DNA of 48,829 nt from the IMG/VR virus record IMGVR_UViG_3300005544_000021; one strand, given 5' to 3'. Positions within the stretch are counted from its first letter, which is position 1; every line of letters starts with the position of its first letter. The notes under the pieces are model-generated. The model ran no database searches and had not been told where the DNA came from. It worked only from the letters and a program-made list of their open reading frames with translations. The position numbers and the translations under genes were made by a program. Positions 1,746 to 48,829 of this stretch are shown here, one piece after another. The stretch comes from a virus (Duplodnaviria > Heunggongvirae > Uroviricota > Caudoviricetes).

Positions 1746-4049
1746 TTAGGAGTACTTCCCTATAACTTCGTTGAAACTTACCGCCGTGCGAACTGCAATA
1801 AAGTTCAGGTTAACCCAGTTAATACTGCGGGCTGGCTTAATATAGATATCGCAATTTAACTCATTATTATCAATAACATCTCCATCGTTATTTGATGCAT
1901 CGCAAATCACCTGGAAGTCATAAATGCCTCGTCGTCCTTGAATTGTCCGAAGATATGGGATAATCATGTTGCGAACTTGAGCCCGAGTAAATGCATCATT
2001 GAACTCAAAGAGGAAGAATTTAGCTGCCGTGGCGATTGCTTTTTCAATCGTGATAAACAAGCGACGCACGTTAATTCGGCTAAAGGCTGAATCTTTTGCC
2101 AGCAAAGTCTTATCACCAAATAGGAGGAAACCTTGTCCTGGATCATTAATGACAGGATTAATTCCGTTTGTATAAAGGGCATCCCGATATGCTTTTCTTG
2201 GATTCCACGCTAGCTTAACAACATTCTTTAAGAGACCCCGATTATATCCTGCAAAAGACCACCAGGGATCATTTGTCGTGTCGGTTCTAACTGCCAGACC
2301 TGCCATATCTCCATTTAATGGAATCCAACGGAAGATATCATTATAACGATCATACATATATTTGTAGCCAGAATCCATAAAGACATAAGAGGTTGATCTG
2401 AGGTTATTTCGGAAGTCAATAGCATTATCGGCTTCAAATCCTACCTGATTAACAACGTCAGTTCTATTTGGAGAAACGAAGAGAACACAATCTTTTCTCT
2501 TTTCCACGATATTATCGGTGATATAGTTTGCAAGTTGCTCCCCATTTATGCCGCCTCGGGCTCTACCCTGCATAATTAAATTTACGTCTACATCTTCGGC
2601 AGATTGGAATAAATCATAAGCATTAGCCAACACGCCCAGAGAAACAACTGTTTCGTCTGAACCATCTTGACCATAATTAAAATCCAAGGACTGAATAGAT
2701 GTGTTTGAGACCGAAGAAAGATTCAAGGCTGTATTTGTGTATCCGATAGACCGGGGATTACAAATCCAAATATATTGGGAAGCTTGATTTATAACGTCTT
2801 GATAGAAAATCGTACCCCCATCAATACCCTTAGCGTTTGTGGCTCGGGAAAGATGACTATATTTTTCCAAGACAGTTCCTGGAACACCCGTGAATAAACC
2901 ATCACTATCCACGACAACCACGTGTAATTCATCGTTTGCCGCCGTGTTTCCATTTATACGCACAAAGTCTGATTGACTTGGGGCGCTATCCATTAAGCTG
3001 AAGAATTCCCAGAATCTGGTAAAGTCTTCAGTTAGATTTTGATTGGCAATCAGGCGTAAATCTTCATTAAATTGAAGTTGGAAGGTAGCCGCTGCGACAG
3101 TGCTATTCACGTTTGAGGTATAGGTGTTAATTGTCGTGATTTGCAGAGCTTGCGTACCAATTGAGTTATTTCCAAACTCCACAAAATCGGTAACTTGCAT
3201 ATTAGCTTGAAAATCAGTTGCTGCTGTATTGACTGCAAGTCTGGCGTTATTTTGTGAAGTACCATCATGGTTATAAATTAACACTACTGTTGCGGTGTTT
3301 GAACCAACGTTTAAGGAAACGGAGGCTCCTCCATTTGCCAGGGTAGCAAGATTAATTGTGCTGGTAAAACCCCCCGAAGAATCACAGAGATTGATTCTTA
3401 ATGAATCTCCTATTGCTCCTGGATATCTGGCGACGGCAATAATATCTGGATCAAAAGTTCCAGCTTTGGTTATATAATCATCTTCCTGCCGAATAATTTG
3501 ATATTCAAGATTTGCTACTTGGGCTGTGTTTGCGATTGAGGAAAATACTGAGGTATTTGTTACAGCCTGGAATTGAATAGTTCCATTTGATAAGGCGTGT
3601 GAACTTGAATCAAGGGTAAAGGCTGTAGAATTAACGATAGCCCCGATGGTTGCCCCAATAGTGACAACTCCAGCAATATTAGCTGCAACGATGATATCTC
3701 CTGCCGCTAGGGGGGCCGTGTTTGTTCCCGTAACTGTAGAATTACCGCTTACAAAAGTTGCGTTAGCAAGAGGGGAACTTCCTGTGGTATTTGCGGCCCG
3801 AGAAACTAAAAGTTTATTACCATCAGCAAGGAAGCTTGCAGCGGTAAAGAATGTTTCGGGGTTAAAGTTTGTTGGTTTACCAAACGTTTTCCAGAGGGTA
3901 GTTTCTGAATCAATTAGCATTCTATGCCCAATTGGACCCCAGCGATAGACACCAGCGATTGCTCCAATAGTAGTGGCTTGAATAGGAATGCCACCAGTTA
4001 AATCAAATTCCTTAATATTCACGCTCGGGCTTACACTGAAGAACGGCAT
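1746..4049 (-). CDS. gp18: Tail sheath protein (T4 gp18-like) with N/T/S-rich inserted domains
   Basis: SPSVNIKEFDLT...WGPIG...FGKP N-terminus and FSRINVRRLF...FEFNDAFTRAQ...IKPARSINWVNLNFIAVRTAVSFNEV C-terminus; AGGAG RBS. Confidence 0.97.
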   Translation of the reverse strand: MPFFSVSPSVNIKEFDLTGGIPIQATTIGAIAGVYRWGPIGHRMLIDSETTLWKTFGKPTNFNPETFFTAASFLADGNKLLVSRAANTTGSSPLANATFVSGNSTVTGTNTAPLAAGDIIVAANIAGVVTIGATIGAIVNSTAFTLDSSSHALSNGTIQFQAVTNTSVFSSIANTAQVANLEYQIIRQEDDYITKAGTFDPDIIAVARYPGAIGDSLRINLCDSSGGFTSTINLATLANGGASVSLNVGSNTATVVLIYNHDGTSQNNARLAVNTAATDFQANMQVTDFVEFGNNSIGTQALQITTINTYTSNVNSTVAAATFQLQFNEDLRLIANQNLTEDFTRFWEFFSLMDSAPSQSDFVRINGNTAANDELHVVVVDSDGLFTGVPGTVLEKYSHLSRATNAKGIDGGTIFYQDVINQASQYIWICNPRSIGYTNTALNLSSVSNTSIQSLDFNYGQDGSDETVVSLGVLANAYDLFQSAEDVDVNLIMQGRARGGINGEQLANYITDNIVEKRKDCVLFVSPNRTDVVNQVGFEADNAIDFRNNLRSTSYVFMDSGYKYMYDRYNDIFRWIPLNGDMAGLAVRTDTTNDPWWSFAGYNRGLLKNVVKLAWNPRKAYRDALYTNGINPVINDPGQGFLLFGDKTLLAKDSAFSRINVRRLFITIEKAIATAAKFFLFEFNDAFTRAQVRNMIIPYLRTIQGRRGIYDFQVICDASNNDGDVIDNNELNCDIYIKPARSINWVNLNFIAVRTAVSFNEVIGKYS

Positions 4050-42791: not shown

Positions 42792-43658
42792 TTATCCTTT
42801 TCTTCTACTCGTTAAATGTTTGATTCCATCATGAACTAAATGTCCAACCCAATTTACTATTCTGGAGGACGTAATAATACGAGGTTGCTTAGCTATATGT
42901 ATCTTGGCTCCCGGATGTAAAATGAATTCATATTCATCTGGGTGTTCCGACACATGACTTACATAAGCCCCATGTGAACCCTTGGGAACATGAATTGTCA
43001 CATAATGACGGTTTTCTTCTTCATCTTCCTTGGAAAAATCTCGGGCAATATCTCGCCTTAATGACGTACTGGTAAAGGCGGGAAGATGAATATGAAAATG
43101 TCCGTGTTTATTTTCTCCGGGAGCCTGATACATTTGCTTAATTGCCGAACGAGTCATTCCCGTGTGAACGGCAAAATCGTGGGGTGTTTCATGCTGAACC
43201 AGGGCTTCTTTTATTCTTCCAGGAATCTTTGAATCATCATAACGATTAGAGTGCCCCATGATGTGTTTATTTATTGGGACGCTTGAACCCCCAGTATACT
43301 GTTTCAGGGCTTCCTTATGATCATCATTAAATGTATAATGGTTAGTTAATTTATTATGAAGTCTATTAACATAGTCAGGTTTAGTATTCTTATCAAGTTT
43401 AAAATCATCAACATGAACAATTTGGGCTTTTATTAGTTTGGGTTTATTTGGGTTAACATGCATATATTTCTTTTGGGCCAGAATATTCTTTAACGCATTT
43501 TTATGTTTCTGGGGATCATCCAGAGAAGCATGACCATATACCCCCCCAAATTGATCCACAAATCTAGAAACCAATCCTTCCGAAACATCTCCATTTTTTC
43601 CGATAAAACCTAGAAACATTTTCTGATATTTTGGGACGATATGTCTTAGTTTCTTCAT
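42792..43658 (-). CDS. Alt/VIP2-like NAD-dependent ADP-ribosyltransferase
   Basis: ALKQYTGGS..INKH, FTSTSL, TIHVPKGSHGAYV, DEYEFILHPG (STS and ExE motifs); MKKLRHIV leader. Confidence 0.85.
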   Translation of the reverse strand: MKKLRHIVPKYQKMFLGFIGKNGDVSEGLVSRFVDQFGGVYGHASLDDPQKHKNALKNILAQKKYMHVNPNKPKLIKAQIVHVDDFKLDKNTKPDYVNRLHNKLTNHYTFNDDHKEALKQYTGGSSVPINKHIMGHSNRYDDSKIPGRIKEALVQHETPHDFAVHTGMTRSAIKQMYQAPGENKHGHFHIHLPAFTSTSLRRDIARDFSKEDEEENRHYVTIHVPKGSHGAYVSHVSEHPDEYEFILHPGAKIHIAKQPRIITSSRIVNWVGHLVHDGIKHLTSRRKG

Positions 43659-46398: not shown

Positions 46399-46575
46399 TT
46401 ATCTAAAAGCCGCACTACGACGACGGGCTCTTTCTCGCCGCTGTTCTTCCGTAGGATTTTCCAAGGCATTCTTCTGGGCTTGACGACATTCTGGACAAAG
46501 AGATTGATCTACCACAGTCATATTGTAAACTTGATATGGTGCCCCGCATACCTTACACTCAACAATCTTAGTCAT
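46399..46575 (-). CDS. 58-aa zinc-binding protein (CKVC...CPEC); not in track
   Basis: MTKIVECKVCGAPYQVYNMTVVDQSLCPECRQAQ...; ATGA overlap with the upstream ORF. Confidence 0.65.
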   Translation of the reverse strand: MTKIVECKVCGAPYQVYNMTVVDQSLCPECRQAQKNALENPTEEQRRERARRRSAAFR

Positions 46576-46847
46576 GGCGATGGCTCATTCTTTTTCCATA
46601 AGTCCTCGGCTAGTTCTACAATATTTACATCCCCGTTTTCATTTTTCATGGAGTCAAAATAATCTTTGGTTAATAAAACACACCTAACATCTACTCCCTC
46701 AAAAAGATAAGCATTATCGGCTTTATATTTTTCCTCATCCTCTTGCTGTAAAATGGTAACAGGATTTCCATCATCATCCAATAAGAGACCATATTGATCG
46801 GCGGCTTTGATATATCCTACGAAGACATATGCTTCTTCTTTGTTCAT
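46572..46847 (-). CDS. Acidic hypothetical protein
   Basis: ATG 46847 with GGGAG RBS. Confidence 0.6.
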   Translation of the reverse strand: MNKEEAYVFVGYIKAADQYGLLLDDDGNPVTILQQEDEEKYKADNAYLFEGVDVRCVLLTKDYFDSMKNENGDVNIVELAEDLWKKNEPSP

Positions 46848-46873: not shown

Positions 46874-46906
46874 GCCCCAAGGGAAACTATCCTGCTCCCT
46901 TGGGGC
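46874..46906. other. GC-rich hairpin downstream of the tRNA-like RNAs (processing/stability element or terminator)
   Basis: GCCCCAAGGGA / TCCCTTGGGGC, perfect 11-bp stem with 11-nt loop; no clear U-tract. Confidence 0.5.
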
Positions 46907-46922
46907 GATGCCATGACTTTAC

Positions 46923-47065
46923 CCGGTTCTCGGCATTTAATGTATAACCTGAGGTTTATGTCGGACGCTCTACCGCTAAGCTACCTCGCCATAATATGGA
47001 GGCGAGGATAGGATTTGAACCTATGCTTTCCGAATAGGGGGTTACACACCTTGATAGAACCAGCA
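46923..47065 (-). ncRNA. Circularly permuted tRNA-like RNA (YrlA/Y-RNA architecture), unit 2, opened at the anticodon loop
   Basis: 5'-3' order: TCGGA, AAGC, T arm ATAGG-TTCAAAT-CCTAT, CCTCGCC-T-CCA, 6-nt linker, GGCGAGG, D arm GCTT-AGCGGTA-GAGC, TCCGA. Flanks pair: TGTGTAACC/GGTTATACA and CTGGTTCT/AGAACCGG. Confidence 0.8.
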
Positions 47066-47066
47066 T

Positions 47067-47255
47067 GGCAATACTCAAGTTGGGGTGAATAGTCTGAGTC
47101 TGAGCGAGCCAAACATCTCAAGGATGTTTCCGTCTACCGTTCCGGCATCCCCGCATCAGTTTTAGACACCAAAAAAGTATCTAAAATTGGTACGGGGAAA
47201 GGGATTCGAACCCTTACGACTCGTTTTTTAGATTCACCACAAGCTTGAGATTTCC
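47067..47255 (-). ncRNA. Circularly permuted tRNA-like RNA (YrlA/Y-RNA-like), unit 1, class II tRNA-like, opened at the variable arm
   Basis: Order: CGAGTC, T arm AAGGG-TTCGAAT-CCCTT, TCCCCGT-A-CCA, 33-nt hairpin linker, GCGGGGA, D arm CCG-GAACGGTAGA-CGG, hairpin AAACATC-CTTGA-GATGTTT, GGCTCG. Ends pair: GGTGAAT/ATTCACC and CTCAAG/CTTGAG. Confidence 0.75.
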
Positions 47256-47258
47256 GTT

Positions 47259-47996
47259 TCAATCCCCCAGCAGATAATCAAAGATGGCTGATCCGACATT
47301 GGGGGTTTGAATTTCTTCATGGACGTTGGCTTCTTCCCGAGCCTCTTTTATGGCTCGTAATAGAATTTCAACTCGTTCCGAGATAGCTTGCTTTTCGGTT
47401 TTTGGTATTGCTCCACTTTGTTTAACCTGTTCCCAAAACCCCGCTATTACATCTTCGGTTATTAGTTGGGTTTGGGCTGGATGTTCGGGGGTCGCGGGAA
47501 ACAAAACAATAGGCTTTTGTACCTTGCGAGTCCGATGTGTTTTCGTTGTCTCGGCCTTGAACAAGCCAGAGTTTTCGTCTTTACTCCAATTATCTCCCTC
47601 ATCTAGAATTGGAAGATTTCCCACAAAGGTACGCAAATCAGTTAGTTGTTTCTCCAAAAACAACAAGAAACTAACGGGAGCATTTGGGATAATAACCTTA
47701 TCATCAATTTTAACAGAAGCATTAGCCGCACAATTAGTCCAATCTTTGCGGGCCGTAACTTCCATTAACTCACTAATAATTCGTTCCGCCCGAGATAATA
47801 CTTCGGCGGCAGAAAACTGAACCCGCTTTTTTTCCGCCGGCAAATCTTCTCCCTCATCATCTCTTTTCAGATATGTTTTCTGAAAACCATTAAATAATTC
47901 TGGTTTCTGAATCGCCTTATTAAGATCGGTCAATTCCCCATAGACTCGGGATTTGATTCCTTTCTCAATTGCGATGATCTGATTGAGCTTAGCCAC
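47259..47996 (-). CDS. Uncharacterised conserved-looking protein (MAKLNQIIAIEKG...), 245 aa, directly upstream of the tRNA-like RNAs
   Basis: GTG start with AAGGAG RBS; helical N/C termini flanking a beta-hairpin region (THRTRKVQKPIVLFPATPEHPAQTQL). Confidence 0.85.
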   Translation of the reverse strand: MAKLNQIIAIEKGIKSRVYGELTDLNKAIQKPELFNGFQKTYLKRDDEGEDLPAEKKRVQFSAAEVLSRAERIISELMEVTARKDWTNCAANASVKIDDKVIIPNAPVSFLLFLEKQLTDLRTFVGNLPILDEGDNWSKDENSGLFKAETTKTHRTRKVQKPIVLFPATPEHPAQTQLITEDVIAGFWEQVKQSGAIPKTEKQAISERVEILLRAIKEAREEANVHEEIQTPNVGSAIFDYLLGD

Positions 47997-48028: not shown

Positions 48029-48057
48029 AGCATAGCAGCTTAGAGTTTTATCGTCAA
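48029..48057 (-). promoter_or_regulatory. Sigma70-type promoter TTGACG-N17-TATGCT
   Basis: -35 at 48057-48052, -10 at 48034-48029, about 30 nt upstream of ORF 47996. Confidence 0.6.
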
Positions 48058-48151: not shown

Positions 48152-48268
48152 ATGATTATGATTCTCGGAATGATAATAGGGTTTTGTTTTCTGGTATTAA
48201 TAATAGAATATGTCCGAGAAGTAATAGCTGATAGAAACTTTAACGCAAGGAAGACATGGTTCTCATAG
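48152..48268 (+). CDS. 38-aa membrane peptide (not in track)
   Basis: MIMILGMIIGFCFLVLIIEYVREVIADRNFNARKTWFS; GGAGAG RBS; possible TTGCCT-N16-TATGAT promoter at 48089-48116. Confidence 0.45.
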   Translation: MIMILGMIIGFCFLVLIIEYVREVIADRNFNARKTWFS

Positions 48269-48541
48269 AAAGGATCGCTCGCACGCAAGGTTCGGTTCTC
48301 ATTCATGGCCTTGGCTCGCAACTCATGAGTGGTTCTCATGACATTACGTGGTTCGCACGGCTGATAGGGTTCTCAGAGCTTCCTTGGCTCGCACGGGATC
48401 ATTCTGGTTCTCAACCTTCCGATGGCTCGCAAGCGAGTGGTGGTTCTCATGTGGTCAATGGCTCGCATGGGATCATTCTGGTTCTCAACCTTCCGATGGC
48501 TCTTCCACGCACGTGGATGTGGTTCTCAACCTTTCCTTGGC
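48257..48541. repeat. Tandem array of ~36-38 nt units with alternating boxes TGGTTCTCA and TGGCTCGCA
   Basis: GGTTCTC starts at 48258, 48294, 48331, 48368, 48406, 48442, 48480 and 48521, with a (G)GCTCGCA-type box between each pair. Confidence 0.9.
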
Positions 48542-48545
48542 TTTT

Positions 48546-48716
48546 TTAAAGTTTTTTGCATAACCAAGAATACGAATCAGTCTTCATTTTTAAGACCAAT
48601 TCAGCTCCCTTTTTTTCACACAGATCAAACGTTTCGTGTTTCGTTACTTCTGCTATTATAGGGGCCGGAAGTCCTGTTGCAGAGTTTATTGCAATCACAA
48701 ACACAAGAAGATACAT
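48546..48716 (-). CDS. 56-aa small protein with hydrophobic N-terminus and two Cys, inside the repeat array; not in track
   Basis: MYLLVFVIAINSATGLPAPIIAEVTKHETFDLCEKKGAELVLKMKTDSYSWLCKKL; AAGGAG RBS. Confidence 0.65.
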   Translation of the reverse strand: MYLLVFVIAINSATGLPAPIIAEVTKHETFDLCEKKGAELVLKMKTDSYSWLCKKL

Positions 48717-48752
48717 GTCCGTTTCTCCTTTTTTTTCCGTCGCATCGGATTA

Positions 48753-48829
48753 TGGTTCTCATCACGACACTGGCTCGCAATGCTACTTATGGTTCTCATA
48801 TCTGTTTTGGCTCGCAAGCGGTATCTAGT
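48753..48829. repeat. Continuation of the TGGTTCTCA/TGGCTCGCA array, running to the window edge
   Basis: GGTTCTC at 48754 and 48791; GCTCGCA at 48773 and 48810. Confidence 0.85.

What the first reader, a model, noticed from the sequence alone, without database searches (positions are those of the whole stretch)
46923..47255. Two tandem circularly permuted tRNA-mimic RNAs (Y-RNA/YrlA-like), both with CCA inside a closed acceptor loop
Seen on the minus strand: in each unit the T arm and 3' acceptor strand with CCA come before the matching 5' acceptor strand and D arm. The acceptor pairs are CCTCGCC/GGCGAGG and TCCCCGT/GCGGGGA, and the unit ends pair into a long stem. The halves pair only within their own unit, so these are not two ordinary tRNAs with insertions. 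Known: bacterial YrlA Y RNAs that bind Ro60/TROVE proteins have this T - closed acceptor - D order, and some phages encode them. Inference: these are phage Y-like RNAs. They could act as decoys for anticodon nucleases or tRNA-sensing defences, or be opened by RNase P/3' processing into aminoacylatable two-piece mimics. No Ro60 gene is visible in this window.
Basis: partly seen in the sequence, partly recalled or inferred. Interest (0 to 1): 0.86.

Follow-up and report, generated by a model that had tools for sequence, protein, structure and literature searches.

The report
Double tRNA-mimic RNA beside DUF7873 gene
The two back-to-front tRNA look-alikes are real, and they belong to a conserved structured RNA that always follows one protein gene of unknown function (DUF7873) in phages and bacteria, so it resembles Ro60/Y-RNA particles but seems to use a different protein.

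Summary
On the minus strand, 47250-46911 holds two circularly permuted tRNA-like units. Each has the order T arm, 7-bp acceptor closed by a loop holding N-CCA, then D arm, and each sits on a long stem made by its own ends.

Unit B has the YrlA topology. Unit A is a tRNA-Leu-like body opened at the variable arm. Twelve relatives give 95.5% pairing, and 30 of 39 pairs show compensatory changes.

Neither unit is an Rfam member: YrlA scores 24 bits against a cut-off of 69. No Ro60/TROVE gene is in this record, or in 9 of 11 related genomes or records, including one complete genome.

The RNA instead lies directly downstream of a DUF7873 gene (47259-47996). This held in 51 of 51 testable viral loci, 8 of 8 cultured phages and 7 of 7 actinobacterial genomes.

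Phages that do carry Ro60 have separate Y-like RNAs beside that gene. DUF7873 has no recognisable fold and is predicted to form a homodimer.

My best reading is a Ro60-independent RNA-protein module built on tRNA mimicry. Its function has not been tested. The CCA is conserved in this clade but not across the family.

This scan has already found the same module on other DNA, in more than 100 genomes. I found no description of it in Rfam 15 or in the searchable papers.

The parts
48029..48057 (-). Sigma-70-like promoter candidate (TTGACG, 17 nt, TG-n-TATGCT) about 30 nt upstream of the DUF7873 start codon.
   Evidence: Consensus scan only. No promoter-like site lies between the gene and the RNA.
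47259..47996 (-). DUF7873 gene (245 aa, P0001), the invariant upstream neighbour of the RNA.
   Evidence: Pfam PF25283, 307 bits, full length. 3438 homologues, all unnamed. AF2 model pLDDT 88 with no informative fold match.
47073..47250 (-). Unit A, a permuted tRNA-Leu-like module. Outer rod 47250-47224 with 47104-47073. Inner stem CGAGUC/GGCUCG at 47223-47218 with 47110-47105. T arm 47215-47199. Acceptor 3' strand plus A-CCA 47198-47188. Loop hairpin 47187-47155. Acceptor 5' strand 47154-47148. D arm 47145-47130. Anticodon-like hairpin 47128-47112.
   Evidence: Sequence, MFE fold, alignment A3 and alifold with compensatory changes in the T, acceptor and D stems. The D arm is closest to phage tRNA-Leu.
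46911..47068 (-). Unit B, a permuted class-I tRNA-like module with YrlA topology. P0 47068-47064 with 46915-46911. P1 47063-47056 with 46930-46923. Conserved internal loop AUCAAGG (47055-47049) opposite UUAAAUGCCG (46940-46931). P2 47048-47040 with 46949-46941. Anticodon-stem equivalent 47033-47029 with 46965-46961. T arm 47024-47008. Acceptor 3' strand plus U-CCA 47007-46997. Loop 46996-46991. Acceptor 5' strand 46990-46984. D arm 46981-46967.
   Evidence: Alignment A1, alifold and pair counts. Model R1 scores 175.9 bits here. Rfam YrlA scores 24.2 bits.
46874..46906 (-). GC-rich hairpin (11-bp stem, loop GCAGGAUAGUU) that closes the unit. It is terminator-like in relatives that carry a U-tract. 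Here the tail is ACCUAAAAUC.
   Evidence: Sequence. Comparison of 3' flanks in relatives. The terminator scan does not call it.
46572..46847 (-). Next gene (91 aa from the ATG at 46847, no known family). It marks the downstream end of the non-coding gap.
   Evidence: ORF list. Gene calls on a near-identical contig leave the 411-nt gap uncalled.

Best explanation
The stretch encodes a conserved structured non-coding RNA of about 340 nt with two heads. Each head is a circularly permuted tRNA mimic carried on a rod formed by its own 5' and 3' ends.

Unit A is a tRNA-Leu-like body. It has discriminator A73, a Leu-type D arm and a non-conserved anticodon-like hairpin, and its rod takes the place of the long variable arm. 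Unit B is a class-I-like body whose rod takes the place of the anticodon arm, as in YrlA.

The RNA is probably made as the 3' part of the DUF7873 transcript, running from the promoter-like site at 48057-48029 to the hairpin at 46906-46874. This is inferred, not shown.

The RNA is coupled to DUF7873, not to Ro60. I propose that the DUF7873 homodimer docks on the sequence-conserved internal loops of the rods (AUCNA opposite UUAAANG in unit B). The tRNA-like heads would then present elbow and acceptor surfaces to host tRNA-handling enzymes. The particle would work like Ro60/Y RNA, as a tether or gate in RNA metabolism, which phages carry along with their tRNA clusters.

In this clade the acceptor loops keep N-CCA a few bases before G+1. 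RNase P cleavage and 3' trimming to a two-piece RNA, as shown for M. smegmatis YrlA, is therefore likely here.

Shown: the structure, its conservation, the gene linkage and the independence from TROVE. Inferred: co-transcription, direct binding, processing and cellular role.
For: Structure:
- z = -5.0.
- Unit B has 95.5% of cells paired and 30 of 39 pairs with double changes. No shuffle of 500 reaches this, and slid controls pair in 37-44%.
- Unit A's T, acceptor and D stems covary.

Linkage to DUF7873:
- All 12 testable loci found by an RNA-only pattern have DUF7873 directly upstream.
- All 51 DUF7873 loci in viral contigs with enough downstream DNA have a full or near-full unit B match on the same strand, at 55-181 bits. 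These loci were found by protein only, at 41-75% identity. The two misses are cut off 27 and 199 nt after the gene.
- 8 of 8 cultured phages of Arthrobacter, Gordonia, Pseudanabaena, Rhizobium, Ralstonia, Klebsiella and Vibrio have permuted units with 7/7 acceptor pairing in the unannotated gap after the gene.
- 7 of 7 DUF7873 genes in actinobacterial genomes are followed by the RNA.
- A second, unit A-like module is present in at least 36 of 43 non-redundant loci.

Independence from Ro60:
- TROVE is absent from G000, from the 100% complete relative G001, and from Pam2, Mimi, Phendrix, Ronaldo, FBKp24, RSL1, D470 and G002.
- Where TROVE is present (G003, TM30), it has its own Y-like RNAs. These match only the tRNA core of model R1.

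Rod motifs:
- AUC.A and UUAAA.G are at least 90% conserved across 40 unique sequences, as conserved as the T loop.

DUF7873 dimer:
- Score 0.72, best of 3 controls 0.00.
- That mark was reached by 20 of 30 proteins solved as pairs of one chain and by 1 of 23 solved as single chains.
- The runs agree in at least 95% of contacts, and the partner's pLDDT is at least 89.

Other points:
- Unit A's D arm is closest to tRNA-Leu among 54 phage tRNAs.
- M. smegmatis YrlA is cleaved by RNase P and receives CCA in vivo (PMC4201824).
Against: - There is no transcript, binding or processing datum.
- DUF7873 is acidic (pI about 5.5) and has no recognisable RNA-binding fold.
- Adjacency could reflect co-transcription or a cis role of the RNA for the DUF7873 mRNA, without any physical complex.
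- N-CCA is found in only 25 of 40 unit B and 16 of 36 unit A sequences family-wide. Some unit A acceptors are long perfect hairpins. RNase P opening therefore cannot be the general mechanism.
- An earlier check in this scan priced the protein-binds-RNA reading at 22/100.
Confidence: 0.55

Rival explanations
1. They are true YrlA-class Y RNAs that work by binding the host's (or another phage's) Ro60/Rsr and tethering PNPase. DUF7873 is an accessory or unrelated neighbour.
For: - Unit B has the YrlA topology, and YrlA is its best Rfam hit.
- Ro60-adjacent phage RNAs score no better on that model: 28-37 bits against 24-38 for DUF7873-linked units. The Rfam cut-off therefore does not separate the two groups.
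- Some relatives carry GUCGAAG or AUCGAAG where YrlA has GNCGAAN0-1G.
- Two of the 11 genomes carry TROVE, as do 3 of 5 actinobacterial genomes with the module.
- Tandem Yrl1/Yrl2 bind a phage Ro60 and host PNPase in Thermus phage phiLo (PMC12135203).
Against: - No TROVE gene lies within 4 kb on the same strand in any case examined. It is absent from most genomes.
- TROVE genes have their own separate RNAs, whose rods do not match R1.
- The window lacks the GNCGAA motif: it has AUCAAGG in unit B and GGUGAAUC in unit A.
- The perfect linkage is to DUF7873.
Confidence: 0.15
2. The tRNA-like units are cis-acting processing or stability signals. RNase P, RNase III or exonuclease stops would define and protect the 3' end of the DUF7873 mRNA, or separate it from downstream messages, in the manner of organellar t-elements. 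On this view there is no trans-acting RNA.
For: - The RNA starts about 8 nt after the DUF7873 stop codon, with no promoter-like site in between.
- A hairpin closes the unit.
- The CCA-then-G+1 geometry suits RNase P.
- Long perfect acceptor hairpins in some relatives would suit RNase III.
Against: - Two elaborate modules, with rod loops conserved at 90% or more from Actinomycetota to cyanophage-like viruses, are far more than a processing site needs.
- Full tRNA tertiary features are kept: G18G19 and the T loop.
- The anticodon-stem and variable-arm rods covary as helices.
Confidence: 0.12
3. After opening they are aminoacylatable two-piece tRNA mimics (unit A by LeuRS), or decoys or sponges for host tRNA-targeting defences that act on the acceptor end. 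DUF7873 is not needed for that activity.
For: - N-CCA is invariant in unit B of the 14 closest sequences and present in 10 of 13 unit A sequences.
- A73 together with a Leu-type D arm in unit A. From established knowledge, LeuRS of E. coli needs neither the anticodon nor the variable arm. This was not tested here.
- The module sits inside phage tRNA clusters.
Against: - CCA is lost in about 40-55% of family members.
- There is no conserved anticodon loop, so these cannot be anticodon-nuclease decoys.
- The module also occurs in bacterial chromosomes.
Confidence: 0.1
4. They are decayed remnants of a tandem tRNA array, or an assembly artefact.
For: - blastn and model R1 both hit junctions between adjacent tRNA genes, such as T4 Ser|Thr, at 20-33 bits.
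Against: - The acceptor halves are complementary within each unit, and compensatory changes maintain them across dozens of independent assemblies.
- The rods are conserved.
- The same architecture appears in finished cultured-phage genomes.
Confidence: 0.01

Closest known systems
YrlA (Y RNA-like A, Rfam RF02553) with Ro60/Rsr. Found in Salmonella, M. smegmatis and mycobacteriophages (Chen et al. 2014, PMC4201824).
   Same: Unit B has the same order: rod from the RNA's ends, T arm, loop-closed acceptor stem, D arm. It has a 7-bp acceptor like the M. smegmatis RNA, which is cut by RNase P and receives CCA. Two RNAs sit in tandem in one precursor, next to the partner gene and on the same strand.
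   Different: It scores 24 bits against the 69-bit cut-off. There is no GNCGAAN0-1G motif in the window. No Ro60 gene is nearby or, in most relatives, anywhere in the genome. The neighbour is DUF7873. The rods carry different conserved loops (AUCNA/UUAAANG). Unit A opens at the variable arm and keeps an anticodon-like hairpin.
Thermus phage phiLo Ro60 with Yrl1/Yrl2 (PMC12135203).
   Same: It is a phage-borne pair of tandem structured RNAs encoded beside their protein, proposed to hijack a host RNA enzyme.
   Different: Those RNAs lie upstream of a TROVE protein and are defined by a CGAA bulge. Here the protein is DUF7873 and the RNAs lie downstream of it.
Circularly permuted tRNA genes of Cyanidioschyzon merolae, and two-piece (permuted) tmRNA genes.
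   Same: The gene order is 3' half (T arm, acceptor 3' strand, CCA), then linker, then 5' half. Rfam's beta_tmRNA model weakly hits that junction in relatives.
   Different: There is no conserved anticodon loop, tag reading frame, pseudoknots or G3:U70. ARAGORN calls neither a tRNA nor a tmRNA. The ends form long conserved rods and are not removed junctions.
Phage T4 stable RNAs rnaC and rnaD (species 1 and 2), at the end of the T4 tRNA cluster.
   Same: They are two tandem small stable RNAs of unknown function with tRNA-like elements, in a T4-type phage.
   Different: The T4 RNAs are not permuted: the T arm and ACCA lie at the 3' end. They do not match R1 and have no DUF7873 neighbour.

Membership tests
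YrlA (Rfam RF02553) | Reaches the family's curated gathering score (69 bits). | tested here: not met
   24.2 bits for unit B, and no YrlA match at E <= 10 for unit A. Relatives score 31-38 bits. Caveat: Ro60-adjacent phage RNAs also score only 28-37 bits.
YrlA (Rfam RF02553) | T arm, loop-closed acceptor stem and D arm, with the RNA's ends forming the stem at the anticodon-arm position. | tested here: met
   Met for unit B. Unit A differs: its rod is at the variable-arm position and it has an extra anticodon-like hairpin.
YrlA (Rfam RF02553) | GNCGAAN0-1G motif near the 5' end, the presumed Rsr contact (PMC4201824). | tested here: not met
   The window has AUCAAGG in unit B and GGUGAAUC in unit A. 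A few relatives have GUCGAAG or AUCGAAG at the same place.
YrlA (Rfam RF02553) | Encoded within about 4 kb of a Ro60/TROVE gene on the same strand. | tested here: not met
   No PF05731 match in the 57.5-kb record (record only 32% complete). None in the complete relative G001. None in 8 of 10 further genomes. Where TROVE is present it lies 6-20 kb away with its own RNAs.
YrlA (Rfam RF02553) | Bound by Rsr/Ro60. | not testable with these tools
   Needs immunoprecipitation or a gel-shift assay.
tRNA (RF00005) | Contiguous cloverleaf with a 7-nt anticodon loop, recognised by tRNA finders. | tested here: not met
   ARAGORN finds 0 genes. The Rfam tRNA model scores 18 bits against a 29-bit cut-off, and only by spanning unrelated flanks.
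Permuted / two-piece tmRNA | Tag reading frame, pseudoknots and alanine identity (G3:U70). | tested here: not met
   ARAGORN finds no tmRNA. Pair 3:70 is G-C in unit A and C-G in unit B. Only weak partial beta_tmRNA hits appear in relatives, at 20-25 bits against an 84-bit cut-off.
DUF7873-linked double tRNA-mimic RNA (unnamed, not in Rfam 15) | Lies directly downstream of a DUF7873 gene on the same strand. | tested here: met
   The gene is at 47259-47996 and the RNA starts at 47250. The same arrangement holds in 51/51, 8/8 and 7/7 loci.
DUF7873-linked double tRNA-mimic RNA (unnamed, not in Rfam 15) | Unit B rod with the conserved internal loop AUCNA opposite UUAAANG, flanked by covarying helices. 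| tested here: met
   The window has AUCAAGG / UUAAAUGCCG. The motifs are at least 90% conserved in 40 unique sequences. The helices covary.
DUF7873-linked double tRNA-mimic RNA (unnamed, not in Rfam 15) | Two permuted tRNA-like heads in tandem, with a Leu-type D arm in the first. | tested here: met
   A second head was found in at least 36 of 43 loci by a conservative rule.

The most novel reading that the evidence does not exclude
DUF7873 and this two-headed RNA form a previously undescribed ribonucleoprotein that does not need Ro60. A DUF7873 dimer would clamp the two rods. The two tRNA-shaped heads would be opened by RNase P in CCA-bearing members, with unit A possibly charged by LeuRS. 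The heads would then capture or gate a tRNA-handling or RNA-degrading enzyme. That would give bacteria an RNA-surveillance device, and would give phages that carry tRNA clusters a way to protect or reprogramme the tRNA pool during infection.
Probability: 0.2. Interest if true: 0.9.

Novelty: new variant of a known kind. Interest (0 to 1): 0.72.

Why it matters
tRNA-mimicking Y RNAs are known only as partners of Ro60. Here the same RNA design recurs across phages of at least four bacterial phyla and in bacterial chromosomes, and it is strictly tied to a different, uncharacterised protein with thousands of homologues.

If the two act together, this gives DUF7873 a testable function. It would show that the tRNA-mimic scaffold is a reusable module with more than one protein partner. 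It would also add an RNA family that current annotation misses, or mislabels: the Klebsiella phage FBKp24 record calls part of it 'tRNA-Sup-TTA'.

Cultured phages of Gordonia and Arthrobacter, and Streptomyces-like genomes, carry the module, so the question can be tested directly.

Tried and rejected
- **Rfam.** The gathering and E-value scans gave no family membership.
- **blastn against phages.** It hit only junctions between adjacent tRNA genes.
- **16-mer pattern scan of viral contigs.** It gave mostly chance hits. Only 5 loci, from 4 distinct contigs, were real.
- **Pattern scan of genome contigs.** Filtering 100 of those loci with R1 left one weak core-only hit, so the scan says nothing about bacteria. 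A later Pfam-led search did find bacterial copies.
- **DUF7873 fold searches.** The best Foldseek pdb hit was Cas7/CasC at E 2.6e-3, probability 0.15, TM 0.11. Swiss-Prot gave nothing. VIA wide gave a best Z of 8.8 to helical designs. The atlas returned only DUF7873 itself. The feature search gave unnamed clusters. Weak Pfam and NCBIfam scans gave nothing.
- **T4 rnaC/rnaD as relatives.** Rejected: they are not permuted and do not match R1.
- **A decoding permuted tRNA that is circularised and re-cut.** Rejected: the anticodon-like loop is not conserved. It is a GNRA or other tetraloop in several relatives.
- **Burroughs & Aravind 2016.** The paper is not held, so I could not check it.
- **First rule-based acceptor scan.** It had an off-by-one error in the T loop and was redone.

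Full report
**What is in the sequence.**
On the minus strand, between the stop codon of a 245-aa gene (47259) and the next gene (ATG at 47847... corrected: 46847), there are two tandem modules.

Unit A (47250-47073) reads, in order:
- the 5' strand of the rod
- inner stem CGAGUC
- T arm AAGGG-UUCGAAU-CCCUU
- acceptor 3' strand UCCCCGU, then A, then CCA
- a 33-nt loop containing a hairpin
- acceptor 5' strand GCGGGGA
- U-G, then D arm CCGG-AACGGUAG-ACGG
- an anticodon-like hairpin AACAU-CCUUGAG-AUGUU
- inner stem GGCUCG
- the 3' strand of the rod

Unit B (47068-46911) reads, in order:
- helices P0 and P1
- internal loop AUCAAGG
- helix P2
- UCGGA
- T arm AUAGG-UUCAAAU-CCUAU
- CCUCGCC, then U, then CCA
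- loop UAUUAU
- GGCGAGG
- D arm GCUU-AGCGGUAG-AGC
- UCCGA
- P2'
- internal loop UUAAAUGCCG
- P1' and P0'

A GC-rich hairpin follows at 46906-46874.

ARAGORN finds no tRNA or tmRNA. No Rfam family reaches its gathering score. The minimum-energy fold reproduces the two independent domains, with z = -5.0 against shuffles.

**It is conserved, and conserved as structure.**
The window is part of an IMG/VR virus record. That record is 57.5 kb, is estimated to be 32% complete, and carries a T4-type baseplate block.

A search with the upstream protein and two DNA-pattern scans recovered the same two-unit arrangement in 13 further viral contigs.

For unit B, measured on 12 sequences:
- 95.5% of cells form standard pairs
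- 30 of 39 pairs change on both sides
- none of 500 column shuffles reaches the observed values
- sliding the partners by 1-3 columns drops pairing to 37-44%

Unit A's T, acceptor and D stems also covary. Decay of tRNA genes and assembly error are therefore excluded.

**What kind of tRNA mimic each unit is.**
Unit B has the YrlA topology, with the rod at the anticodon-arm position. YrlA is its best Rfam hit, but at 24.2 bits against a cut-off of 69.

Unit A is different. It keeps a hairpin where the anticodon arm would be, and that hairpin's loop is not conserved: several relatives have tetraloops there. The RNA's ends leave the body where a class II tRNA has its long variable arm. Its D arm (UGGCGGAAUUGGUAGACGC in relatives) is closest to tRNA-Leu among 54 phage tRNAs. 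Its discriminator is A in 28 of 36 copies.

**The partner is DUF7873, not Ro60.**
The upstream gene is a full-length DUF7873 (PF25283, 307 bits). This family has 3438 unnamed homologues and appears in no paper in the searchable library.

The linkage holds in both directions:
- Every testable locus found through the RNA alone has DUF7873 directly upstream (12 of 12).
- A covariance model of unit B (R1) finds a full or near-full match downstream, on the same strand, in 51 of 51 viral DUF7873 loci that have enough flanking DNA. These loci share 41-75% protein identity. The two misses are cut 27 and 199 nt after the gene.
- The same is true in 8 of 8 cultured phages: Arthrobacter Mimi, Gordonia Phendrix and Ronaldo, Pseudanabaena Pam2, Rhizobium TM30, Ralstonia RSL1, Klebsiella FBKp24 and Vibrio D470. 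In these the gene often sits inside the tRNA cluster and is followed by an unannotated 350-1160-nt gap that holds permuted units with 7/7 acceptor pairing.
- It is also true in 7 of 7 actinobacterial genomes that carry the gene, out of 401 sampled.

TROVE (PF05731) is absent from this record, from a 100% complete close relative, and from eight further genomes.

Two phages do carry TROVE. In both, the gene has its own Y-like RNAs immediately upstream. Those RNAs match only the tRNA core of R1 and not its rods.

The TROVE-linked phage RNAs also score only 28-37 bits on Rfam's YrlA model. Failing that cut-off therefore does not separate the two classes. The rods and the neighbouring gene do.

**What is conserved besides the tRNA core.**
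Across 40 unique unit B sequences, the letters AUC.A on the 5' strand and UUAAA.G on the 3' strand of the rod's internal loop are at least 90% conserved. That is as strong as the T loop, while the flanking helices vary by compensation. This is the signature of a specific binding site.

N-CCA in the acceptor loop is invariant in the 14 closest unit B sequences, and A-CCA is present in 10 of 13 unit A sequences. Family-wide, N-CCA is present in only 25 of 40 unit B and 16 of 36 unit A sequences. Some unit A acceptors are long perfect hairpins, and one holds a nested tRNA-like insert (L098).

RNase P opening to a two-piece RNA is documented for M. smegmatis YrlA (PMC4201824). It is plausible for this clade but is not the family's common denominator.

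**The protein.**
The AlphaFold2 model is confident (pLDDT 88, pTM 0.70). It has no informative structural neighbour, and the protein is acidic (pI 5.5).

A two-copy prediction supports a large symmetric homodimer:
- score 0.72, best of three controls 0.00
- that mark was reached by 20 of 30 proteins solved as pairs of one chain and by 1 of 23 solved as single chains
- the runs agree in at least 95% of contacts
- the partner's pLDDT is at least 89

A dimer facing two rods is an attractive picture, but it is inference only.

**Transcription.**
A sigma-70-like site (TTGACG, 17 nt, TG-n-TATGCT) lies at 48057-48029, upstream of DUF7873. No such site lies between the gene and the RNA. The closing hairpin has a U-tract in several relatives but not here. 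Co-transcription is therefore likely but unproven. No expression data could be obtained.

**Comparison with what is known.**
Phage Y-like RNAs have been described only beside Ro60, in mycobacteriophages, CcrColossus, phage G and Thermus phiLo (PMC4201824, PMC12135203).

Earlier follow-ups in this scan reached the same reading on other DNA, with 124 notes in at least 100 genomes. One note cites Burroughs & Aravind 2016 as the nearest idea in print. That paper is not held, so I could not check it.

T4's rnaC and rnaD are not permuted and are unrelated.

**Verdict.**
This is a real, widely conserved two-headed tRNA-mimic RNA. It is YrlA-like in design but is not a Ro60-linked YrlA, and it is tied to DUF7873. 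I class it as a new variant of a known kind. Its function is open, and I hold the RNP reading at roughly even odds.

Noticed in passing
window 48254-48817: There is an array of at least ten copies of GGTTCTCA-N11-12-GGCTCGCA at a period of about 37 nt, split by a 230-nt spacer. It looks like iterons or a protein-binding array. It lies beyond the end of the IMG/VR record.
   Followed up: partly
window 42792-43658 (-): A 288-aa protein with an ADP-ribosyltransferase exoenzyme domain (PF03496, E 4.7e-16) is encoded directly after the gp6-like baseplate wedge gene. It may be a virion-borne ART.
   Followed up: no
L098:4484-4746 (-): In this relative, unit A's acceptor is a 21-bp perfect helix. Its loop holds a nested tRNA-like element with its own D-arm-like and T-arm sequences.
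   Followed up: no
L251:1700-2130 and L247:41-115: The two related phages that carry a TROVE/Ro60 gene (IMG/VR G003 and Rhizobium phage TM30) have separate permuted tRNA-like RNAs directly upstream of that gene. The DUF7873-linked pair lies 6-20 kb away.
   Followed up: partly
L243:3018-3097 (Klebsiella phage FBKp24, NC_061421.1): The record annotates 'tRNA-Sup-TTA' inside the DUF7873-linked RNA. Unit B lies at about 3051-3169 by R1, so this is probably a mis-call of a fragment of the mimic.
   Followed up: partly
L104:4900-5030 (IMG/VR contig of 293,850 bp): Inside a tRNA cluster with no DUF7873 in the fetched locus there is a T arm, then an acceptor stem closed by a UUCG tetraloop, then a D arm. 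It may be an independent permuted tRNA mimic.
   Followed up: no
L241:63-591 (Gordonia phage Phendrix): A phage-encoded tmRNA (Rfam 89 bits) sits at the head of the tRNA cluster that contains the DUF7873 module.
   Followed up: no
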